From the IMG/VR virus record IMGVR_UViG_3300021255_000122, positions 1-64,000 of that record: 64,000 nucleotides of DNA, one strand, 5' to 3'. The notes under the pieces are model-generated. The model was not told the DNA's origin. It did not search any database and saw nothing but the letters and a program-made list of their open reading frames with translations. Position numbers and translations under genes: made by a program. Source of the stretch: a virus (taxonomy: Duplodnaviria > Caudoviricetes). Below, piece by piece: positions 3,620-31,049 of the stretch. Each line of letters starts with the position of its first letter. Position 1 is the first letter of the stretch.

Positions 3620-4180
3620 TTAATAGTCAAAATCTTTATTCAAAGCCTCTTGTAATGAAATCGCACCGTAGTTTCCTGCTTTCCAATTGTTGATAAAATT
3701 GTATATCGCCCACGCAAAATCTTCGGTTACTATGTTGCTTTTCTTTTTGTACTTTTCAAATTCGGCATTTGCGTCATACCCTAACACATCGTTGCAAAGT
3801 TGGTCGCAAATTTCGTTGTACACGTTTCCGTTGTGGCCTTTCACCCAATTGTATGTTATGTGCTTAATGTTTTTATTTTCAGCACGTACCTTGCGCCAAA
3901 CCTTAAACAAATCTTCGTTGCTTTTTTGTTGCCATTGTCCAGACAAAGTATTAAGTGCATATTGCGAATCGGAATAAATATCCACCTCGTCGGCATCATC
4001 GGGCAATCGGTTAAAAGCCGCAATAATCGCTTTTAGTTCGGCGCGGTTGTTTGTTTCCTTTGTAATCTTGTACGCATTCCTTTCGATTTCCGCGTTTTCG
4101 CCATTCAATATAACATAGGCAAACGCACCCTCGTCGTGTTGTTTTGAATACGCACCGTCCGTATAAATCGTATATCTCAT
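3620..4180 (-). CDS. rnhA: ribonuclease HI
   Basis: Motifs YTDGA, TNNRAEL, YSDSQY, WVKGH..NVYNEICD give the RNase H catalytic D-E-D-D set. Confidence 0.92.
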   Translation of the reverse strand: MRYTIYTDGAYSKQHDEGAFAYVILNGENAEIERNAYKITKETNNRAELKAIIAAFNRLPDDADEVDIYSDSQYALNTLSGQWQQKSNEDLFKVWRKVRAENKNIKHITYNWVKGHNGNVYNEICDQLCNDVLGYDANAEFEKYKKKSNIVTEDFAWAIYNFINNWKAGNYGAISLQEALNKDFDY

Positions 4181-4274
4181 AATTGTTATCTATTTATATA
4201 TATTTATATTTATAATTATATCTTTAGAATTTTATTATGTAAAAACATACATAGTTTTGATTTTTGAACTTTGG

Positions 4275-4722
4275 ATATTGCACAAAATTCCCAAAGTACA
4301 TTTTTACTGTACTTAGGAATTGTGCGTTTCTGGTAGTCCGTCATCCGTCACCCCATCAACCACACACAATAGCGAATTGCAAACACTATTGATACCTGTC
4401 CTTCCCGATTTGCTTTCGGTCGCACAAGCGGACAAGACACTTTTTCAAGCGTACCCTCACTTACTACCTTAGTGCTATCCCTCTTGGTAGTTTAATGTCC
4501 TTGGAATCGAGGTGTGACAACCGATACAATTTTCTCTTTCGGTATTTATGGACGTTCAAATCCCAAGTAAGTGAAATGGGAAATGCCAACCTTATAAAAG
4601 CAACAATCCCTATCAAGTAGTGCGGATACTTAATAGGGAAATGTCTATATAAAGTTGGCTCAAATGCCGTACTTTCCAACAATGTCCGTGAATCCTACAA
4701 GTTCCGCACACTTAATTCACGG
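4275..4722 (-). ncRNA. candidate ~440-nt structured RNA or long leader with complementary hairpin loops
   Basis: Starts right after the promoter at 4725-4732; multiple stems; loops GUGCGGA and UCCGCAC are complementary; no convincing ORF. Confidence 0.5.
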
Positions 4723-4724
4723 TG

Positions 4725-4755
4725 CAAAGATAGAACAAAGTTTTAAACACACAAA
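4725..4755 (-). promoter_or_regulatory. Bacteroidota housekeeping promoter (-33 TTTG, -7 TATCTTTG)
   Basis: Reverse complements of caaagata (4725-4732) and caaa (4752-4755), 19-nt spacer. Confidence 0.8.
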
Positions 4756-7560: not shown

Positions 7561-7599
7561 AATAAATAAATAAATTTTAAATATACAAAATAAGTTTCG

Positions 7600-7634
7600 A
7601 AAAAGATAGGGAGGTTTATACGCCTCCCCGTCTT
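7600..7634 (-). terminator. intrinsic terminator
   Basis: gggagg/cctccc stem followed by a U-run on the minus strand. Confidence 0.6.
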
Positions 7635-7795
7635 AAAAGTCTAACAATACGATATGCAACTACTTTTTCGTTACATTTGGAACAACACTCGCCCTCGTCT
7701 TTGATAGGCCACGGGTTGTGACCCCATTCGTTTTTGATTCGCTTGCCACAAATACAACAAGTAAAGGGCTTGAAGTTTGCTTTAATCCCGTCCAT
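7616..7795 (-). CDS. small Cys-rich Zn-finger-like protein, 59 aa (CCICGK..GHNPWP..CCSKCN)
   Basis: Read by hand; motif pattern seen in small phage proteins. Confidence 0.6.
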   Translation of the reverse strand: MDGIKANFKPFTCCICGKRIKNEWGHNPWPIKDEGECCSKCNEKVVAYRIVRLLRRGGV

Positions 7796-9752: not shown

Positions 9753-9905
9753 TTATCTCCTATTTGTTTGTTTACTAATTGTTTTGTATGCCTCGTCGTA
9801 GGTTTCAAATGCCGTAGTATCACGGCACTCCCACGCTTTTGCGCCAAGCGCAATCAATACCGCCTGACGCTGCTTTTCCGTCAATGTTATTTGATACGTT
9901 TTCAT
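9753..9905 (-). CDS. hypothetical protein, 50 aa (MKTYQITLTEK...)
   Basis: Read by hand; fills the gap. Confidence 0.5.
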   Translation of the reverse strand: MKTYQITLTEKQRQAVLIALGAKAWECRDTTAFETYDEAYKTISKQTNRR

Positions 9906-13583: not shown

Positions 13584-14852
13584 TTTTTTCATGGCTTTAG
13601 CCCAAGCATTTTCCTTATTCTTGAGTGCGCCGTAAATCTCGCGAATTTCGTCCTTTTCAAGACCTTTGCAAACACTCTCCACAATGCAAGCCTCTTTGTC
13701 GTTTTCGTTTTCCACTTCGTCGCGCATGGCTGCTGTAGCGCGATAAGACACTACCTGCTGAATGCCTGTGCTCTTTATTGCTTCGCGAATATCTTCGACA
13801 AAAGCAACAATTTCCTCATTACCCCCTGCAATTTTCAACTCGACTTCATGGCTGTAATCAACCTCGAAGAAAAAACCGAAACGGTCCCGGCTGCTTGCGT
13901 CAATAATCTGACCCGTCACATATTCCTCGTCAGCACCTTTCATTAAAGTGTTTCCTGCGGCCATAAAGCGGAAATTCGGATGAGCGTTAACACGGCCAAC
14001 AATAGGGAAATCGTACCAGCCGTTAGCAAGAGCCGAATTAAGAACAATAGCGGCTTCACTGTTGCTGCGGTCGTATTCATCCTGAAAGTACAGGCCGCCA
14101 TTTGCAAACGCTTTAAAAAACGGCGTTTCCTGAAAATTGCCGCCAGCGTCACCATATCCGCGTACGTCGTGCGCAAATTGTATTGTGGTCTGTCCGTAAA
14201 AATCAAGACCCAGCCGCTCGGCTACCTGTTCTGCCGTGTGGCTCTTACCACTACCAGCACGACCAAACAAATACACGTTATTACCGCGTGCGACCTTTGC
14301 CACAATACGCTCGAACTTTTCACAATAAACCTCGCCTTCTTTTTTCGCGTTTTGGCGTGCTTTCTTGACAACTGCGGAGAACTTCTTTGGGTCATCCTTT
14401 GCCATGCGGTTGAGGACGTTGCAAACAATCTCCTCAACCTTTGCGGCATCCACTGCACCTCCGCGCAGATTCTTAATGGCATTAATTAACGCCTGTTCGT
14501 CCTTTGTGCTTTCGTCGGTGGTATGCACATTTTCTGGCTTGTGTGCATTTTCGGCACATGGTTCTTCTTTCACCTCCACGGCCTCGGCCTCGGCTTTTTC
14601 CGTCGGCTGAGGCTGCGGTTTTTCGGCCTTCTTGCGAGGAGCACGCTCTTTCGTTAAGATAGTCCACTCGTTAGAGAGTGTAAATACCTGCTCACCGTTC
14701 TCGTCCTTTGACTCGTTCAAAATACCGCTCCATGAGTTTGCGAACCTCTTGCCGAGAGGCTTTCCCGTGTTGCTTTTAACAAGACCTCCCTCTACCTTTG
14801 TGTTGCTAACTGCCTTGACCTCACCTGTTGTCAAATTCTTAATCTTAATCAT
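13575..14852 (-). CDS. MoxR/CbbQ/NorQ-type AAA+ ATPase with low-complexity N-terminal region
   Basis: Walker A GRAGSGKS, Walker B YFQDEYD, LNSAL, HPNFRFMAAGN, D.SSRDRF. Confidence 0.88.
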   Translation of the reverse strand: MIKIKNLTTGEVKAVSNTKVEGGLVKSNTGKPLGKRFANSWSGILNESKDENGEQVFTLSNEWTILTKERAPRKKAEKPQPQPTEKAEAEAVEVKEEPCAENAHKPENVHTTDESTKDEQALINAIKNLRGGAVDAAKVEEIVCNVLNRMAKDDPKKFSAVVKKARQNAKKEGEVYCEKFERIVAKVARGNNVYLFGRAGSGKSHTAEQVAERLGLDFYGQTTIQFAHDVRGYGDAGGNFQETPFFKAFANGGLYFQDEYDRSNSEAAIVLNSALANGWYDFPIVGRVNAHPNFRFMAAGNTLMKGADEEYVTGQIIDASSRDRFGFFFEVDYSHEVELKIAGGNEEIVAFVEDIREAIKSTGIQQVVSYRATAAMRDEVENENDKEACIVESVCKGLEKDEIREIYGALKNKENAWAKAMKKAF

Positions 14853-15539: not shown

Positions 15540-15866
15540 AAAATTAGTCGGCTGGTTGCTGCCTGTAGGCCGTTGCTGCTCACTCGCCCCACCGTTAGGT
15601 GGTTTTAACGCCGCATAATATAAAGCGTTGCGAGGCCGAGAAAATCTGGCTTTTGTGTTTGTTTACAATTCCCTGTTAAGGTTCACGACCTACGTCGGCG
15701 GCATGTAAGTACTGCAAAAGCGGTTCTGCTCGATTTGCATTCCCTTCGGGTATCATGCTCCGCGCATATCCCGTTGGCAATTTAAGACCTCCCTGAAAAA
15801 CTAATTCCATGTACTCGCTTGCTTGAGGGTGATGCTTGCGACCCTGTGGGGTGATTTCTTAAATCT
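15540..15866 (-). ncRNA. candidate ~330-nt structured non-coding RNA
   Basis: Follows the -7 element at 15871-15878; GC-rich island in AT-rich surroundings; many nested stems; no ORF of 60 aa or more. Confidence 0.6.
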
Positions 15867-15870
15867 GATG

Positions 15871-15878
15871 CAAAGATA
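15871..15878 (-). promoter_or_regulatory. Bacteroidota -7 promoter element TATCTTTG
   Basis: caaagata on plus. Confidence 0.65.
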
Positions 15879-24163: not shown

Positions 24164-24176
24164 TATAACATAAAAT

Positions 24177-24209
24177 TTTGCTATATATGAAATTTTATTA
24201 GTACACTTG
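24177..24209 (+). promoter_or_regulatory. Bacteroidota promoter (-33 TTTG, -7 TACACTTG variant)
   Basis: 21-nt spacer; same position relative to the RNA motif as the promoter at 31004-31035. Confidence 0.65.
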
Positions 24210-24210
24210 C

Positions 24211-24289
24211 AAAGTGGATAGGGCGGTTTGGCCACCGCTTGATAAGGGGTAATCCTATCGCCCCTTCCACTTTTTCAAATGATAGGATT
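24211..24289 (+). ncRNA. three-way-junction/pseudoknot RNA motif, copy 1 (5' of NUMOD4-HNH gene)
   Basis: Four helices, all with compensatory changes relative to copy 2. Confidence 0.75.
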
Positions 24290-24308
24290 GATTAAAGAAT
24301 AGGAAATT

Positions 24309-25061
24309 ATGAAAGAAATTTGGAAAGACGTTGTAGGCTACGAGGGTTTGTATCAAGTATCGAATCTTGGTAGGATAAAATCGTTACCAAAAGAAAAGAA
24401 AACCCCAACCACAACTTTTATGACGAAAGAAACAATCTTAAATCAACACAAAGATAAGGGTGGTTACTTTCGTGTAATGTTGACAAAGAAAGGGAAATCA
24501 ATACTTAAATCAGTGCATGTCATTGTCGCTTCTGCTTTTATTGGTGAAAGGAATAATCTTACCGTAAACCATAAAGACGAAAATAAAGCCAACAATAACG
24601 CAAACAACCTTGAATATCTTACAAGAGCAGAAAACGTGAGGTACGGAACTGGTATTATTCGTAGTGCTAAAAACAGACAAAATAACCCTAACATAGGTAT
24701 TGCTGTAAATCAATTCAACTTAGACGGTACTTTTGTCGCAAGATACAAATCTGCTTTTCTCGCAATGAAACTAAACGGTTGGAAAGGTTGTGGAGGTAAT
24801 ATCTTAGAATGTTGTAGAAAAAAGAAACACACATTTATGGGTTTTGTGTGGCGTTTTGATGGAGATACAAACATTGAATTTGAACGAAAGACTAATGCCA
24901 AGGGTGTTTTGCAATTTACAAAGGATGGTGTACTCATCACAGAATATAAGTCATTGACAGATGCGGAAATGGCTACACATACTCAAAAAGCGCACATTTG
25001 CGATTGTTGTAAGGGAAATAGAAAATACGCAAACGGTTTCTTGTGGAAATATAAGGATTAG
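24309..25061 (+). CDS. free-standing homing endonuclease NUMOD4-HNH-NUMOD1x2
   Basis: EIWKDVVGYEGLYQVSNLGRIKS (NUMOD4), VNHKDENKANNNANNLEY (HNH), two NUMOD1 repeats ending GFVWRF and GFLWKY. Confidence 0.92.
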   Translation: MKEIWKDVVGYEGLYQVSNLGRIKSLPKEKKTPTTTFMTKETILNQHKDKGGYFRVMLTKKGKSILKSVHVIVASAFIGERNNLTVNHKDENKANNNANNLEYLTRAENVRYGTGIIRSAKNRQNNPNIGIAVNQFNLDGTFVARYKSAFLAMKLNGWKGCGGNILECCRKKKHTFMGFVWRFDGDTNIEFERKTNAKGVLQFTKDGVLITEYKSLTDAEMATHTQKAHICDCCKGNRKYANGFLWKYKD

Positions 25062-25066
25062 TAATT

Positions 25067-30089: not shown

Positions 30090-30092
30090 ATA

Positions 30093-30905
30093 CTAATCAG
30101 TTATTTCTACCTTGTAATTCATTAAAGCATTATAAACTTTTTCGTTTATCTTTCCATCTTTGTAATATTGTGTTGCCATTTCTTGAATATGGGCTTCTTT
30201 CGTCTTTTTGTATGCTTGAAATGCTTTTTCTTGTGTATCAAACGTGCCAAGATTTATATATTCACCATACTTTCTAACAATAGCACTAAACGATTTGCGT
30301 TTATTTCTTTTTACTACACCTATCGGAAAATTACCCCTTGTTGCATCATGTTTTGTTATAAGCGTATTTATTTCAGATGGCACAAAACAACAAGTTTTAG
30401 GGGAATATACTTTATTGCCTTTTATAAGAATGTCCTTATCAAGATGATACCCTTCTACGTAATTCTCGTCAAACCATCTTTCGAAATTAGAAAAATACCG
30501 CCAACTATCACAAACAGTACAATTTTCGTAAGGTGTTCCTATGTTCTTTGACGAATAACATCTTTGAAACATGGCTTTCCATATTACATAAGATTTATGT
30601 CTTTCCCCTTTAACCGATGTGGAAAAATCCGAATCATTTATACCAATGCCATATATTTTTTTTCGTGACCATTTTCTTGGAATACCGCCGTTATTACGTG
30701 AAGCATACGAACAACTTTTGCATCCACAATACAATAAATGGTCGTGTGGGGTTTGTAAAAAAACACCATGTTTCTTGCATATAATAGGAACTTTTGTAGT
30801 GGTGTTAACGTAAATTTCTTCTGTAATAAGGTTATAATCAAACCTGTTACCCCACACATTTTTAAATGCAGTTTTAATTTCTGCTAAAGTTTTCTTTCTT
30901 GGCAT
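30093..30905 (-). CDS. free-standing HNH-AP2 homing endonuclease inserted in the tail operon (start MPRKK; alternative start 30935)
   Basis: IICKKHG..CKSC, WKAMFQRCY, HLDKDILIKGNKVYSPKTCCFVP..IN, NLGTFDTQEKAFQAY (AP2). Confidence 0.88.
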   Translation of the reverse strand: MPRKKTLAEIKTAFKNVWGNRFDYNLITEEIYVNTTTKVPIICKKHGVFLQTPHDHLLYCGCKSCSYASRNNGGIPRKWSRKKIYGIGINDSDFSTSVKGERHKSYVIWKAMFQRCYSSKNIGTPYENCTVCDSWRYFSNFERWFDENYVEGYHLDKDILIKGNKVYSPKTCCFVPSEINTLITKHDATRGNFPIGVVKRNKRKSFSAIVRKYGEYINLGTFDTQEKAFQAYKKTKEAHIQEMATQYYKDGKINEKVYNALMNYKVEITD

Positions 30906-30926
30906 ATTATCTACACTTTTAATATT

Positions 30927-31000
30927 ATCTACCATTGGAATTATGGAAGGGGCGGTAGATTTGCCCCTTATCGGATGGTGGCCAAACCATCCTATCCATA
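30927..31000 (-). ncRNA. three-way-junction/pseudoknot RNA motif, copy 2 (5' of HNH-AP2 gene)
   Basis: Same junctions (AUA, GAU) and loop (UUGGCC) as copy 1, with covarying stems. Confidence 0.75.
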
Positions 31001-31003
31001 CTA

Positions 31004-31035
31004 CAAAGATAAACATTATTCTAAACATATCCAAA
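31004..31035 (-). promoter_or_regulatory. Bacteroidota promoter (-33 TTTG, -7 TATCTTTG)
   Basis: caaagata at 31004-31011 and caaa at 31032-31035, 20-nt spacer. Confidence 0.8.
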
Positions 31036-31049
31036 TATTTTTAAGTTCT

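What the first reader, a model, noticed from the sequence alone, without database searches (positions are those of the whole stretch)
24177..24311. Covarying three-way-junction plus pseudoknot RNA shared by two unrelated homing endonuclease genes
Copy 1 (24211-24289, plus) vs copy 2 (31000-30927, minus). P1: AAAGUGG/CCACUUU vs UAUGG/CCAUA. Junction AUA. P2: GGGCGGU/ACCGCUU vs GGAUGGU/ACCAUCC, loop UUGGCC in both. Junction GAU. P3: AAGGGGU/GCCCCUU vs AAGGGGC/GCCCCUU. The P3 loop pairs downstream: AAUCCUAUC/GAUAGGAUU vs AUCUACC/GGUAGAU. Every helix changes sequence but keeps pairing, while junctions and the P2 loop are invariant. Both start at a promoter and precede an endonuclease, but of different types (NUMOD4-HNH-NUMOD1 vs HNH-AP2) at distant loci, so the promoter-RNA unit behaves as a portable control module. 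Simple RBS-sequestering hairpins are known for T4 homing endonucleases. The branched shape with a loop matching a downstream target recalls c4 (P1), CI (P4) and IsrK-type RNAs. I do not know this motif as described in Bacteroidota phages.
Basis: seen in the sequence. Interest (0 to 1): 0.85.

Follow-up and report, generated by a model that had tools for sequence, protein, structure and literature searches.

The report
Folded leader RNA of nuclease cassettes
Two unrelated selfish DNA-cutting-enzyme genes of this Bacteroides-type phage each begin with the same three-armed folded RNA. It is a long-armed, uncatalogued relative of the orphan Rfam motif int-alpA, and its design suggests that it throttles translation of the gene behind it.

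Summary
Both copies fold into a three-way junction whose P3 loop pairs downstream. On 49 distinct relatives, 91% of helix cells pair, against 41-57% in slid controls.

It is not a new class. Copy 1 hits Rfam int-alpA (RF02996) at 29.2 bits, below the 35.8-bit cut-off, and copy 2 does not hit. A model built only from this long-armed form recovers two sequences that pass the int-alpA cut-off. I therefore read it as a divergent, uncatalogued branch of a known orphan motif. This scan has already reported the same family on other genomes.

- **Second target site.** The P3 loop has a second, weaker complement about 18 nt further on, ending about 3 nt before the AUG (33 of 34 leaders, 8% in cross controls).
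- **Self-complementary P2 tip.** The P2 tip carries a six-letter palindrome that changes between lineages but stays self-complementary.
- **One mobile unit.** Promoter, RNA and nuclease gene are present or absent together at both loci in related phages.

The genes behind the leader are HNH endonucleases in 42 of 49 cases. The most likely function is protein-free translational control in cis. This is untested. A cultured Bacteroides uniformis phage carries two copies, so it can be tested.

The parts
24177..24209 (+). Predicted Bacteroidota-type promoter of cassette 1 (-33 box 24177-24180, -7 box 24202-24209)
   Evidence: Read from the sequence. A -7 box with at most one mismatch ends 5-7 nt before the junction motif in 23 of 37 distinct upstream contexts. 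The transcription start has not been mapped.
24211..24273 (+). Copy 1 core: three-way junction (P1, P2, P3)
   Evidence: Model R1 scores it at 83.0 bits. Covariation. Rfam int-alpA scores 29.2 bits, below the 35.8-bit cut-off.
24229..24234 (+). Six-letter self-complementary tip of P2, copy 1
   Evidence: 26 of 43 distinct P2 arms hold a perfect palindrome of 6 nt or more (4.1 expected), with nine different palindromes of 6-8 nt. No second copy lies in cis among the 18 leaders checked, apart from 4 scattered occurrences with no consistent position.
24251..24259 (+). P3 loop of copy 1 (the pairing loop)
   Evidence: Complementary to 24281-24289 and to 24299-24304.
24281..24289 (+). Site 1 of copy 1: pseudoknot partner of the P3 loop (parking site)
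   Evidence: 9 bp, -13.3 kcal/mol. Family-wide covariation.
24299..24304 (+). Site 2 of copy 1: second complement of the P3 loop, 4 nt before the AUG at 24309
   Evidence: 6 bp, -6.6 kcal/mol (one search gives -6.7). 33 of 34 leaders have a complement of 6 nt or more in the last 24 nt before the AUG, against 8.4% in cross controls.
24309..25061 (+). Nuclease gene 1: NUMOD4-HNH_3(-NUMOD1) homing-type endonuclease, 250 aa
   Evidence: Pfam NUMOD4 1.3e-17 and HNH_3 2.6e-9; NUMOD1 is below the cut-off. phrog_59 1.6e-38.
24164..25066 (+). Approximate extent of mobile cassette 1 (promoter + RNA + nuclease gene), between the 88-aa ORF and the DnaB-like helicase gene
   Evidence: In L221 and L230 the two flanking genes abut, with no nuclease and no RNA. 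In L224, where no 88-aa ORF homolog was detected, the stretch upstream of the helicase likewise holds neither. L212 and L213 carry the same cassette. L215 and L222 carry other HNH genes behind the RNA at this site. L223 carries the RNA ahead of a gene unlike nuclease 1 that I did not examine.
31004..31035 (-). Predicted promoter of cassette 2 (-33 box 31035-31032; -7 box 31011-31004, exact consensus)
   Evidence: Read from the sequence.
30940..31002 (-). Copy 2 core: three-way junction
   Evidence: Model R1 scores it at 83.1 bits. The minimum-energy fold equals the junction fold. No Rfam hit at E up to 10.
30979..30984 (-). Six-letter self-complementary tip of P2, copy 2 (same letters as in copy 1)
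30927..30933 (-). Site 1 of copy 2 (pseudoknot partner of loop 30962-30954)
   Evidence: 7 bp, -10.3 kcal/mol.
30909..30914 (-). Site 2 of copy 2, 3 nt before the AUG at 30905
   Evidence: 6 bp; -6.4 kcal/mol and -6.7.
30093..30905 (-). Nuclease gene 2: HNH endonuclease of another family, 270 aa
   Evidence: phrog_953 1.5e-75 and phrog_374. No Pfam hit. Unrelated to nuclease 1.
30090..31049 (-). Approximate extent of mobile cassette 2, between the 1941-aa ORF and the 192-aa ORF
   Evidence: L233-L236 have the two flanking genes adjacent, with no nuclease and no RNA. L232 has a 51%-identical nuclease plus the RNA at 79.6 bits.

Best explanation
Each copy is the 5' leader of a free-standing HNH homing-endonuclease cassette. 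A host-type promoter starts transcription at or within the first letters of P1. The first ~63 nt fold into a three-way junction with conserved junction letters.

The 9-nt loop of P3 is complementary to two downstream sites:
- Site 1 lies 5-8 nt after P1 and gives the more stable pairing (a pseudoknot).
- Site 2 lies about 18 nt further on, ends about 3 nt before the AUG, and sits inside the ribosome-landing region.

I infer that the loop acts as an anti-ribosome-site element. Parked on site 1 it leaves the start region open. Paired with site 2 it closes the start region. The balance between the two sets how much nuclease is made, without any protein of the cassette.

The self-complementary tip of P2 probably lets two leaders pair tip to tip. 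That could deliver a second, free loop to site 2 and so make repression depend on RNA concentration.

By descent the RNA is a long-P2 branch of the orphan Rfam motif int-alpA.

What is shown: the fold, both complementarities, the palindromic tip, the mobility with the gene, and the family link. What is inferred: the transcription start, translational control and its direction, and dimerisation.
For: **Fold**
- 91.2% of cells paired on 49 distinct leaders against 41-57% slid; 205 doubly changed cells.
- Pseudoknot: all 8 pairs covary.

**Two target sites**
- Own loop against own downstream region: best complement 7.0 nt and second best 5.9 nt. Cross controls give 4.3 and 3.0.
- Site 2 of 6 nt or more just before the AUG in 33 of 34 leaders, against 8.4% in cross controls.
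- Site 1 averages -11.1 kcal/mol and site 2 -8.8. Site 1 is the stronger in 27 of 34. Start-to-start spacing is 18.0 +/- 1.9 nt. Site 2 ends a median of 3 nt before the AUG.
- In members from hosts that use Shine-Dalgarno sequences, site 2 lies on the purine-rich GGAG-type stretch.
- The two window copies are orthogonal: cross pairing is only -2.6 and -1.7 kcal/mol.

**P2 tip**
- 26 of 43 distinct arms hold a palindrome of 6 nt or more (4.1 expected); 40 of 43 hold one of 4 nt or more (18.3 expected).

**Genes and mobility**
- The gene behind the leader is an HNH endonuclease in 42 of 49 cases. The four clusters called HNH fall into three kinds of PHROG hits.
- Empty and filled sites occur at both loci in relatives.

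**Family link**
- Copy 1 scores 29.2 bits against int-alpA.
- L034 and L023 pass the int-alpA cut-off at 40.4 and 37.9 bits. Model R1, built only from long-P2 leaders, finds them at 44.2 and 40.1 bits.

**Precedent**
- Translational control of phage homing endonucleases by RNA structures that hide the ribosome site is established in T4 (PMC2988022).
Against: - There is no expression data.
- Site 2 is short (6 nt, about -6.5 kcal/mol in both window copies) and weaker than site 1. In cis the start region may therefore be open nearly all the time, and nothing identified here would switch it.
- For copy 1 a rod-like alternative fold is 6.7 kcal/mol better than the junction fold before the pseudoknot is counted.
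- The strongly conserved junction letters suggest a partner (protein, ribosome or ligand) that this model does not name.
- Some nuclease genes at the same site lack the leader (L214), so it is not required.
- Palindromic tips could have another cause that I have not thought of.
- The counts are on distinct sequences, not on independent evolutionary events.
Confidence: 0.6

Rival explanations
1. It is a trans-acting antisense RNA of the P1 c4 / P4 CI kind. The junction is released as a stable small RNA by termination or processing after P1. Its loop then pairs in trans with the two sites on read-through transcripts, which blocks translation or provokes termination.
For: - Rfam files int-alpA as 'Gene; sRNA'.
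- A loop with two complementary targets is the design of c4 and CI (my own knowledge of those systems).
- Many members have a U-rich stretch right after P1.
- Copies within one genome carry different, non-cross-reacting loops (L037).
Against: - Copy 2 has no U run after P1.
- Cassette 1 sits directly upstream of the helicase gene on the same strand, so an efficient terminator there would be polar.
- The Rfam C4 and isrK models give nothing at E up to 10.
- Both targets lie within 45 nt in cis, where intramolecular pairing should win.
Confidence: 0.15
2. It is a sensor (riboswitch-like or protein-binding). The conserved junction binds a small molecule, a host protein or the ribosome, and binding decides whether the loop sits on site 1 or on site 2.
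For: - The junction letters and the P3 stem are nearly invariant across leaders from phages of very different hosts, while the helices drift.
- Two mutually exclusive pairings resemble a riboswitch expression platform.
Against: - The genes behind the leader (nucleases, an HTH protein, a replication initiator) point to no metabolite.
- Unrelated nucleases share the leader, so binding by the encoded protein is unlikely.
- No candidate partner was found.

This reading is compatible with the best explanation as its missing trigger.
Confidence: 0.12
3. It only protects the message. A base-paired 5' end and a compact pseudoknot shield the cassette's mRNA from 5'-end-dependent decay, and the second complement is incidental.
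For: - The predicted start falls in P1, so the 5' end would be paired.
- Structured 5' ends stabilise bacterial and phage mRNAs (general knowledge).
Against: This does not explain why a second complement of a freely drifting loop is kept next to the AUG in 33 of 34 leaders, nor the palindromic P2 tip.
Confidence: 0.08
4. It is a DNA-level element. The palindrome and the two direct repeats would be operator or recombination sites for a protein, not RNA structure.
For: Palindromes and direct repeats next to a promoter are typical of operators. I-TevI represses its own promoter (PMC2988022).
Against: - The helices hold G-U pairs that exist on one strand only, and they covary by compensatory change.
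- The palindromes and repeats differ between lineages and are not conserved as a protein site would be.
- Orientation is always sense to the gene.
Confidence: 0.03

Closest known systems
Rfam RF02996, int-alpA RNA motif (a candidate structured RNA; from memory, from the 224-motif survey of Weinberg et al. 2017, PMC5737381; function unknown)
   Same: - The order of elements is the same: P1, short junction, P2, purine-rich junction, P3, then a tail that pairs with the P3 loop.
- The junction letters are nearly the same.
- Copy 1 aligns end to end with the model at E 2.5e-4.
- Members found with this motif's own pattern pass the family cut-off and are found by my model.
   Different: - Both window copies fail the cut-off (29.2 bits; no hit).
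- P2 is 7 bp with an 8-nt tip, against a short hairpin in the Rfam model.
- The hosts are Bacteroidota-type and lack Shine-Dalgarno use.
- The genes behind the leader are homing endonucleases, not integrase or alpA. (The association implied by the family name is from memory; the survey's supplement was not available.)
- The second loop target and the palindromic tip are not part of the Rfam consensus line that I saw.
RBS-sequestering hairpins of T4-type homing endonuclease genes (I-TevI, I-TevII, I-TevIII, segB, mobE; PMC2988022)
   Same: An RNA structure in the leader of a phage homing endonuclease gene covers the ribosome site and limits translation. The logic is the same: restrain a selfish nuclease.
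   Different: - Those are simple hairpins that form only on read-through transcripts, because the gene's own late promoter lies inside them.
- Here the promoter precedes the whole structure.
- Here the structure is a three-way junction with a parking site.
- Here it is conserved across unrelated nucleases and phage groups.
Phage immunity antisense RNAs: c4 of P1/P7 (Rfam C4), CI of P4, IsrK
   Same: Small branched RNAs whose loops are complementary to two target sites on the same transcript, one at a ribosome site (my knowledge of these systems).
   Different: - No match to the Rfam C4 or isrK models.
- Here both targets lie downstream, within 45 nt.
- There is no sign of RNase P-type processing.
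- The regulated genes are nucleases, not antirepressors.
HIV-1 dimerisation initiation site and other palindromic kissing loops (review PMC7357161)
   Same: A six-letter palindrome sits in an apical loop beside unpaired letters. The palindrome varies between lineages but stays self-complementary.
   Different: - Dimerisation is untested here.
- The context is a bacterial-virus mRNA leader, not a packaged genome.
- Some members keep only 4 self-complementary letters.

Membership tests
Rfam int-alpA (RF02996) | Bit score at or above the curated gathering score (35.8) | tested here: not met
   Copy 1 scores 29.2 bits, E 2.5e-4. Copy 2 gives no hit at E up to 10. No hit at gathering level anywhere in the window.
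Rfam int-alpA (RF02996) | Three-way junction with the family's junction letters and a conserved G-rich/C-rich P3 | tested here: met
   End-to-end alignment to the model consensus. Covariation on 49 leaders.
Rfam int-alpA (RF02996) | The 3' tail pairs with the P3 loop (pseudoknot) | tested here: met
   8 of 8 pairs with changes on both sides, 88.8% paired against 31-53% slid.
Rfam int-alpA (RF02996) | Continuity with accepted members (reciprocal detection) | tested here: met
   L034 (40.4 bits) and L023 (37.9 bits) pass the Rfam cut-off. Model R1, built from long-P2 leaders only, scores them at 44.2 and 40.1 bits.
Rfam int-alpA (RF02996) | Association with integrase or alpA genes (implied by the family name; recalled, not read) | tested here: not met
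   The genes behind the leader here are HNH endonucleases, 42 of 49 in the sampled branch.
c4 / IsrK / P4 CI antisense RNAs | Match to Rfam C4 or isrK | tested here: not met
   Neither appears in permissive scans of either copy.
c4 / IsrK / P4 CI antisense RNAs | Released as a discrete small RNA by processing | not testable with these tools
T4-type RBS-sequestering hairpin | A simple hairpin containing the RBS, disrupted in transcripts from the gene's own promoter | tested here: not met
   The predicted promoter lies wholly upstream of P1. The structure is a junction plus pseudoknot.
Palindromic kissing-loop dimerisation site (HIV-1 DIS type) | A self-complementary hexamer exposed in an apical loop and maintained through sequence change | tested here: met
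   26 of 43 distinct arms against 4.1 expected; nine different palindromes of 6-8 nt. In the window: 24229-24234 and 30984-30979.
Palindromic kissing-loop dimerisation site (HIV-1 DIS type) | The RNA forms a dimer that depends on the palindrome | not testable with these tools
   Needs native gels or proximity ligation.
Riboswitch | A defined ligand and a gene context related to that ligand | tested here: inconclusive
   The junction is conserved, but the genes behind the leader suggest no ligand.

The most novel reading that the evidence does not exclude
The leader is a protein-free, concentration-sensing brake. Leaders pair tip to tip through the palindromic P2 loop. Within the dimer, or with leader fragments left over from decayed messages, a free P3 loop reaches site 2 of the partner and shuts its translation. 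The mobile cassette would thus limit its own nuclease dose in whatever genome it lands in. That would be a regulatory RNA homodimer in a bacterial virus, and it would give a function to the orphan int-alpA family.
Probability: 0.2. Interest if true: 0.8.

Novelty: new variant of a known kind. Interest (0 to 1): 0.55.

Why it matters
int-alpA is a catalogued RNA motif with no known function. This branch supplies a concrete, testable mechanism: an anti-ribosome-site loop, a parking site and a possible dimerisation tip. It also supplies a clear biological setting, the self-restraint of mobile nuclease genes.

The leader works in hosts that do not use Shine-Dalgarno pairing, so it could also say something about how start sites are chosen in Bacteroidota.

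It is compact (about 100 nt), and each copy has its own loop and target pair, which makes it attractive as a portable expression controller.

A reviewer of RNA dimers notes that functional RNA oligomers are rarely seen in nature (PMC7357161), so a confirmed dimer would be notable.

Against this, the family is already in Rfam, and this scan has reported the same leader type on other genomes. This window adds a further instance and a cultured test system, not a new class.

Tried and rejected
- **Other catalogued RNAs.** An Rfam scan of the whole window at gathering level found nothing. No tRNA or tmRNA was found. The leader is therefore not a tRNA-like element, an intron or any other catalogued RNA.
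- **Close relatives among deposited phage genomes.** DNA searches of the phage collection with the window and with two leaders found nothing. Only a protein search led to a cultured relative.
- **int-alpA in the control genomes.** The search gave no usable reference copies.
- **Third copy in the window.** A weak model hit at 7599-7669 (19.6 bits) lacks the junction letters and looks like an ordinary hairpin. Rejected.
- **Terminator reading of P1 plus U run.** Weakened, because copy 2 has no U run and cassette 1 lies upstream of the helicase gene.
- **Upstream AUG next to site 1 as a general feature.** Rejected. An upstream AUG occurs in 17 of 34 leaders, about 12 of them at site 1. Those site-1 cases sit mainly in leaders whose loop resembles the window's. 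Frame and stops are not consistent.
- **A second copy of the P2 palindrome in cis as pairing partner.** None in 14 of the 18 leaders checked; the 4 occurrences found have no consistent position.
- **Fixed-register count for site 2.** It gave only 65% pairing because subgroups use different registers and some rows misalign. A register-free test was used instead.
- **Genome-collection pattern scan.** Most of the 72 hits were chance. Only 12 passed the model.
- **Supplement of the 2017 survey.** It is not held, so what its authors wrote about int-alpA could not be read.
Full report
**What is there**

The window is part of an 80,227-bp virus record with direct terminal repeats. Its closest cultured relative is Bacteroides phage C3_41T2LP, which infects B. 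uniformis. The helicases are 43.7% identical over their full length.

Each has the following parts, in order:
- a 5-7 bp P1;
- a three-letter junction;
- a 7-bp P2 with a six-letter loop, identical in both copies;
- a second three-letter junction;
- a 7-bp G/C-rich P3 with a nine-letter loop;
- a complement of that loop a few letters after P1.

A 25-position core pattern occurs only at these two places in the window and never in shuffles. Both copies sit directly behind a Bacteroidota-type promoter, with a -33 box, a 20-21 nt spacer and a -7 box. In copy 2 the -7 box is an exact consensus. In 23 of 37 distinct upstream contexts across relatives, such a -7 box ends 5-7 nt before the junction motif. 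Transcription should therefore begin in the first letters of P1. This is a prediction; I have no RNA data.

**Is the structure real?**

I scanned the viral collection with two patterns taken from the conserved core. I built a covariance model, R1, from ten long-armed leaders, then collected and aligned matches.

- On 49 distinct leaders, 91.2% of helix cells form standard pairs. When the 3' partners are slid by 1-3 columns, the figure is 41-57%.
- 16 of 21 pairs show changes on both sides, in 205 cells.
- P3 was held nearly constant by my search patterns. Leaders found by the model alone still show compensated changes in it.
- The loop-to-tail pseudoknot is supported in the same way: all eight pairs change on both sides, with 88.8% paired against 31-53% slid.

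One caveat applies to copy 1. Its thermodynamic optimum is a different, rod-like fold, 6.7 kcal/mol better than the junction fold before the pseudoknot is counted. For copy 2 the optimum is the junction fold.

**What family is it?**

- A permissive Rfam scan aligns copy 1 end to end with int-alpA (RF02996) at 29.2 bits, E 2.5e-4. The family cut-off is 35.8 bits.
- Copy 2 gives no Rfam hit. Nothing in the window reaches any gathering score.
- Of nine loci carrying validated leaders, the int-alpA model found only the two with a short P2, at 40.4 and 37.9 bits. Both are above the cut-off.
- Model R1 contains no short-P2 sequence, yet it finds those two at 44.2 and 40.1 bits.

The window's RNA is therefore continuous with int-alpA, but it belongs to a long-P2 branch that the Rfam model does not capture.

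int-alpA has no assigned function as far as I could find. The library holds only incidental mentions. The survey's main text does not discuss it and its supplement is not held. Searches for a described nuclease-leader junction RNA or a phage leader kissing loop found nothing relevant.

**A second target of the loop**

In both copies the P3 loop has a second complement next to the start codon. These are 24299-24304, 4 nt before the AUG at 24309, and 30914-30909, 3 nt before the AUG at 30905. This holds across the family.

| Measure | Result |
|---|---|
| Leaders with a loop complement of 6 nt or more in the last 24 nt before the AUG | 33 of 34 (27 distinct loops) |
| Same test with loops paired to other leaders' start regions | 8.4% |
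| Site 1, mean length and pairing energy | 7.5 nt, -11.1 kcal/mol |
| Site 2, mean length and pairing energy | 6.6 nt, -8.8 kcal/mol |
| Leaders in which site 1 is the stronger | 27 of 34 |
| Start-to-start spacing of the two sites | 18.0 +/- 1.9 nt |
| Gap from the end of site 2 to the AUG | median 3 nt |

- In members from hosts that use Shine-Dalgarno pairing, site 2 falls on the GGAG-type stretch.
- In the Bacteroidota-type members site 2 has no fixed sequence but keeps its position.
- The two window copies do not cross-react: -2.6 and -1.7 kcal/mol, against about -6.5 kcal/mol (site 2) to -13 kcal/mol (site 1) for the cognate pairs.

**A self-complementary tip**

The apex of P2 usually consists of two unpaired letters followed by a six-letter palindrome.

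- Of 43 distinct P2 arms, 26 carry a perfect palindrome of 6 nt or more, against 4.1 expected from shuffled apices.
- 40 of 43 carry one of 4 nt or more, against 18.3 expected.
- Nine different palindromes of 6-8 nt occur.
- The two inner pairs of a hexamer cannot form within one loop.
- Among the 18 leaders checked, the palindrome recurs nearby in only 4, at no consistent position. The simplest partner is therefore the same loop of a second molecule.

This design is known from the HIV-1 dimerisation initiation site (PMC7357161). Both window copies carry the same palindrome. Copies in other genomes often differ from one another. Dimerisation itself is untested.

**The gene behind the leader, and mobility**

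- Of 49 distinct leader-plus-gene combinations, 42 encode HNH endonucleases. The four clusters called HNH fall into three kinds of PHROG hits.
- The other seven are of mixed types. They include a replication-initiator-like protein, a glycosyltransferase-like protein, a protein with a weak hit to tail assembly chaperones, and one of unknown function.
- In the cultured phage one leader precedes an annotated HTH protein.
- The two window nucleases show no similarity to each other.
- Nuclease 1 is NUMOD4-HNH_3, with a sub-threshold NUMOD1 match.
- Nuclease 2 matches phrog_953 and no Pfam family, so the AP2 call is unconfirmed.

Cassette 1 site in relatives:
- L221 and L230 have the 88-aa ORF abutting the helicase gene, with neither nuclease nor RNA.
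- L224 lacks a detectable 88-aa ORF homolog, and the stretch upstream of its helicase also holds neither.
- L212 and L213 have the same cassette as the window.
- L215 and L222 have other HNH genes behind the RNA at that site.
- L223 has the RNA ahead of a gene that I did not examine.
- L214 has a nuclease without the RNA.

Cassette 2 site in relatives:
- L233-L236 have an empty site.
- L232 has a 51%-identical nuclease with the RNA.

Promoter, RNA and nuclease gene are thus gained and lost as one unit of about 0.9 kb. The same P2 tip is shared by leaders of both nuclease families within this phage group, whereas the same nuclease family in other phages carries other tips. By inference, leaders and genes reassort.

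**How it probably works**

Shown: the fold, the two complementarities with their positions and strengths, the palindromic tip, and the mobility. Inferred: everything else.

I think the loop is an anti-ribosome-site element with a parking place. On site 1 it leaves the A/U-rich start region open. On site 2 it blocks the start region.

In cis, site 1 should usually win, so the default would be 'on'. Repression would then need something that frees a loop or adds one. The palindromic tip suggests the source: a second leader, or a leader fragment that outlives its message, docked tip to tip. That would make repression rise with RNA dose.

This fits the known need to restrain phage homing endonucleases, which T4 meets with simpler hairpins (PMC2988022). 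It also fits a cassette that must regulate itself wherever it lands.

Unrelated nucleases and non-nuclease genes share the leader, which argues against control by the encoded protein. The near-invariant junction still hints at an unnamed partner.

I put 0.6 on cis translational control in this general form and about 0.2 on the dimer-dependent version. The main rivals are:
- a c4/CI-like trans-acting RNA;
- a ligand or protein sensor, which could equally be the missing trigger;
- simple 5' protection of the message;
- a DNA-level operator, which the strand-specific G-U pairs and compensatory changes make unlikely.

**Standing**

The scan's earlier notes describe the same family on other genomes, including the parking-site idea and the self-pairing tips. 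They are unchecked AI notes and not independent evidence. I reached the palindrome idea before reading them (note) and tested each point here.

Outside this scan I found only the Rfam entry. I therefore class the finding as a new variant of a known kind.

What this window adds is a clean two-locus case with empty-site controls, and a cultured phage-host pair that carries two leaders. That pair makes the mechanism directly testable.

Noticed in passing
window 24279-24302 (+) and 30935-30903 (-): An AUG sits directly 5' of site 1 in both copies. In copy 1 it opens a 7-codon reading frame that stops at a UAG inside site 2. In copy 2 it is in frame with the nuclease start and would add 10 residues. 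An upstream AUG occurs in 17 of 34 leaders, about 12 of them at site 1. Those site-1 cases sit mainly in leaders whose loop resembles the window's, with inconsistent frame, so it is probably not a family feature.
   Followed up: partly
OR296439.1 (Bacteroides phage C3_41T2LP) 35180-35119 (-) and 51606-51656 (+); loci L238-L241: A cultured B. uniformis phage carries two leaders of this family. One (39.5 bits) precedes a gene annotated as an I-HmuI-like DNA endonuclease. The other (25.1 bits) precedes a gene annotated as an HTH-domain protein. Each has its own compensated P3, its own loop and target pair, and its own palindromic P2 tip.
   Followed up: partly
L214:2880-3500: A relative has an HNH endonuclease gene at the helicase site with no promoter-RNA unit, starting right after the upstream gene. 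The leader is therefore not obligatory for such insertions.
   Followed up: no
L037 (IMGVR_UViG_3300028833_002010) 3964-4027, 9782-9844, 13639-13699: One 17.7-kb contig carries three leaders with three different P3 loops and three different P2 tips. Each loop has two matching downstream sites.
   Followed up: partly
L045-type leaders: several dozen loci among L045-L139 (the largest group): One identical leader recurs on more than 30 viral contigs, most of them from sample 3300045988. This suggests a very abundant phage lineage or very recent spread of one cassette.
   Followed up: no
window 7599-7669 (+): A weak model hit (19.6 bits, E 0.005). It is a hairpin-rich intergenic stretch without the junction letters and is not a member.
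   Followed up: yes
window 5588-59884, 15540-15878, 4180-4755: Other first-stage notes on this genome describe dispersed ~70-bp palindromes at gene boundaries and two long promoter-driven structured RNAs without ORFs. I did not examine them.
   Followed up: no
L141 (Candidatus Prevotella equi MAG), L181 (Bacteroides sp. MAG), L183, L188, L205, L210 and others: Model-validated leaders also occur on contigs binned into MAGs of several phyla: Bacteroidota, Bacillota, Spirochaetes, and the Syntrophales and Thermodesulfovibrionia groups. Whether these are prophages or mis-binned phage contigs was not checked.
   Followed up: no
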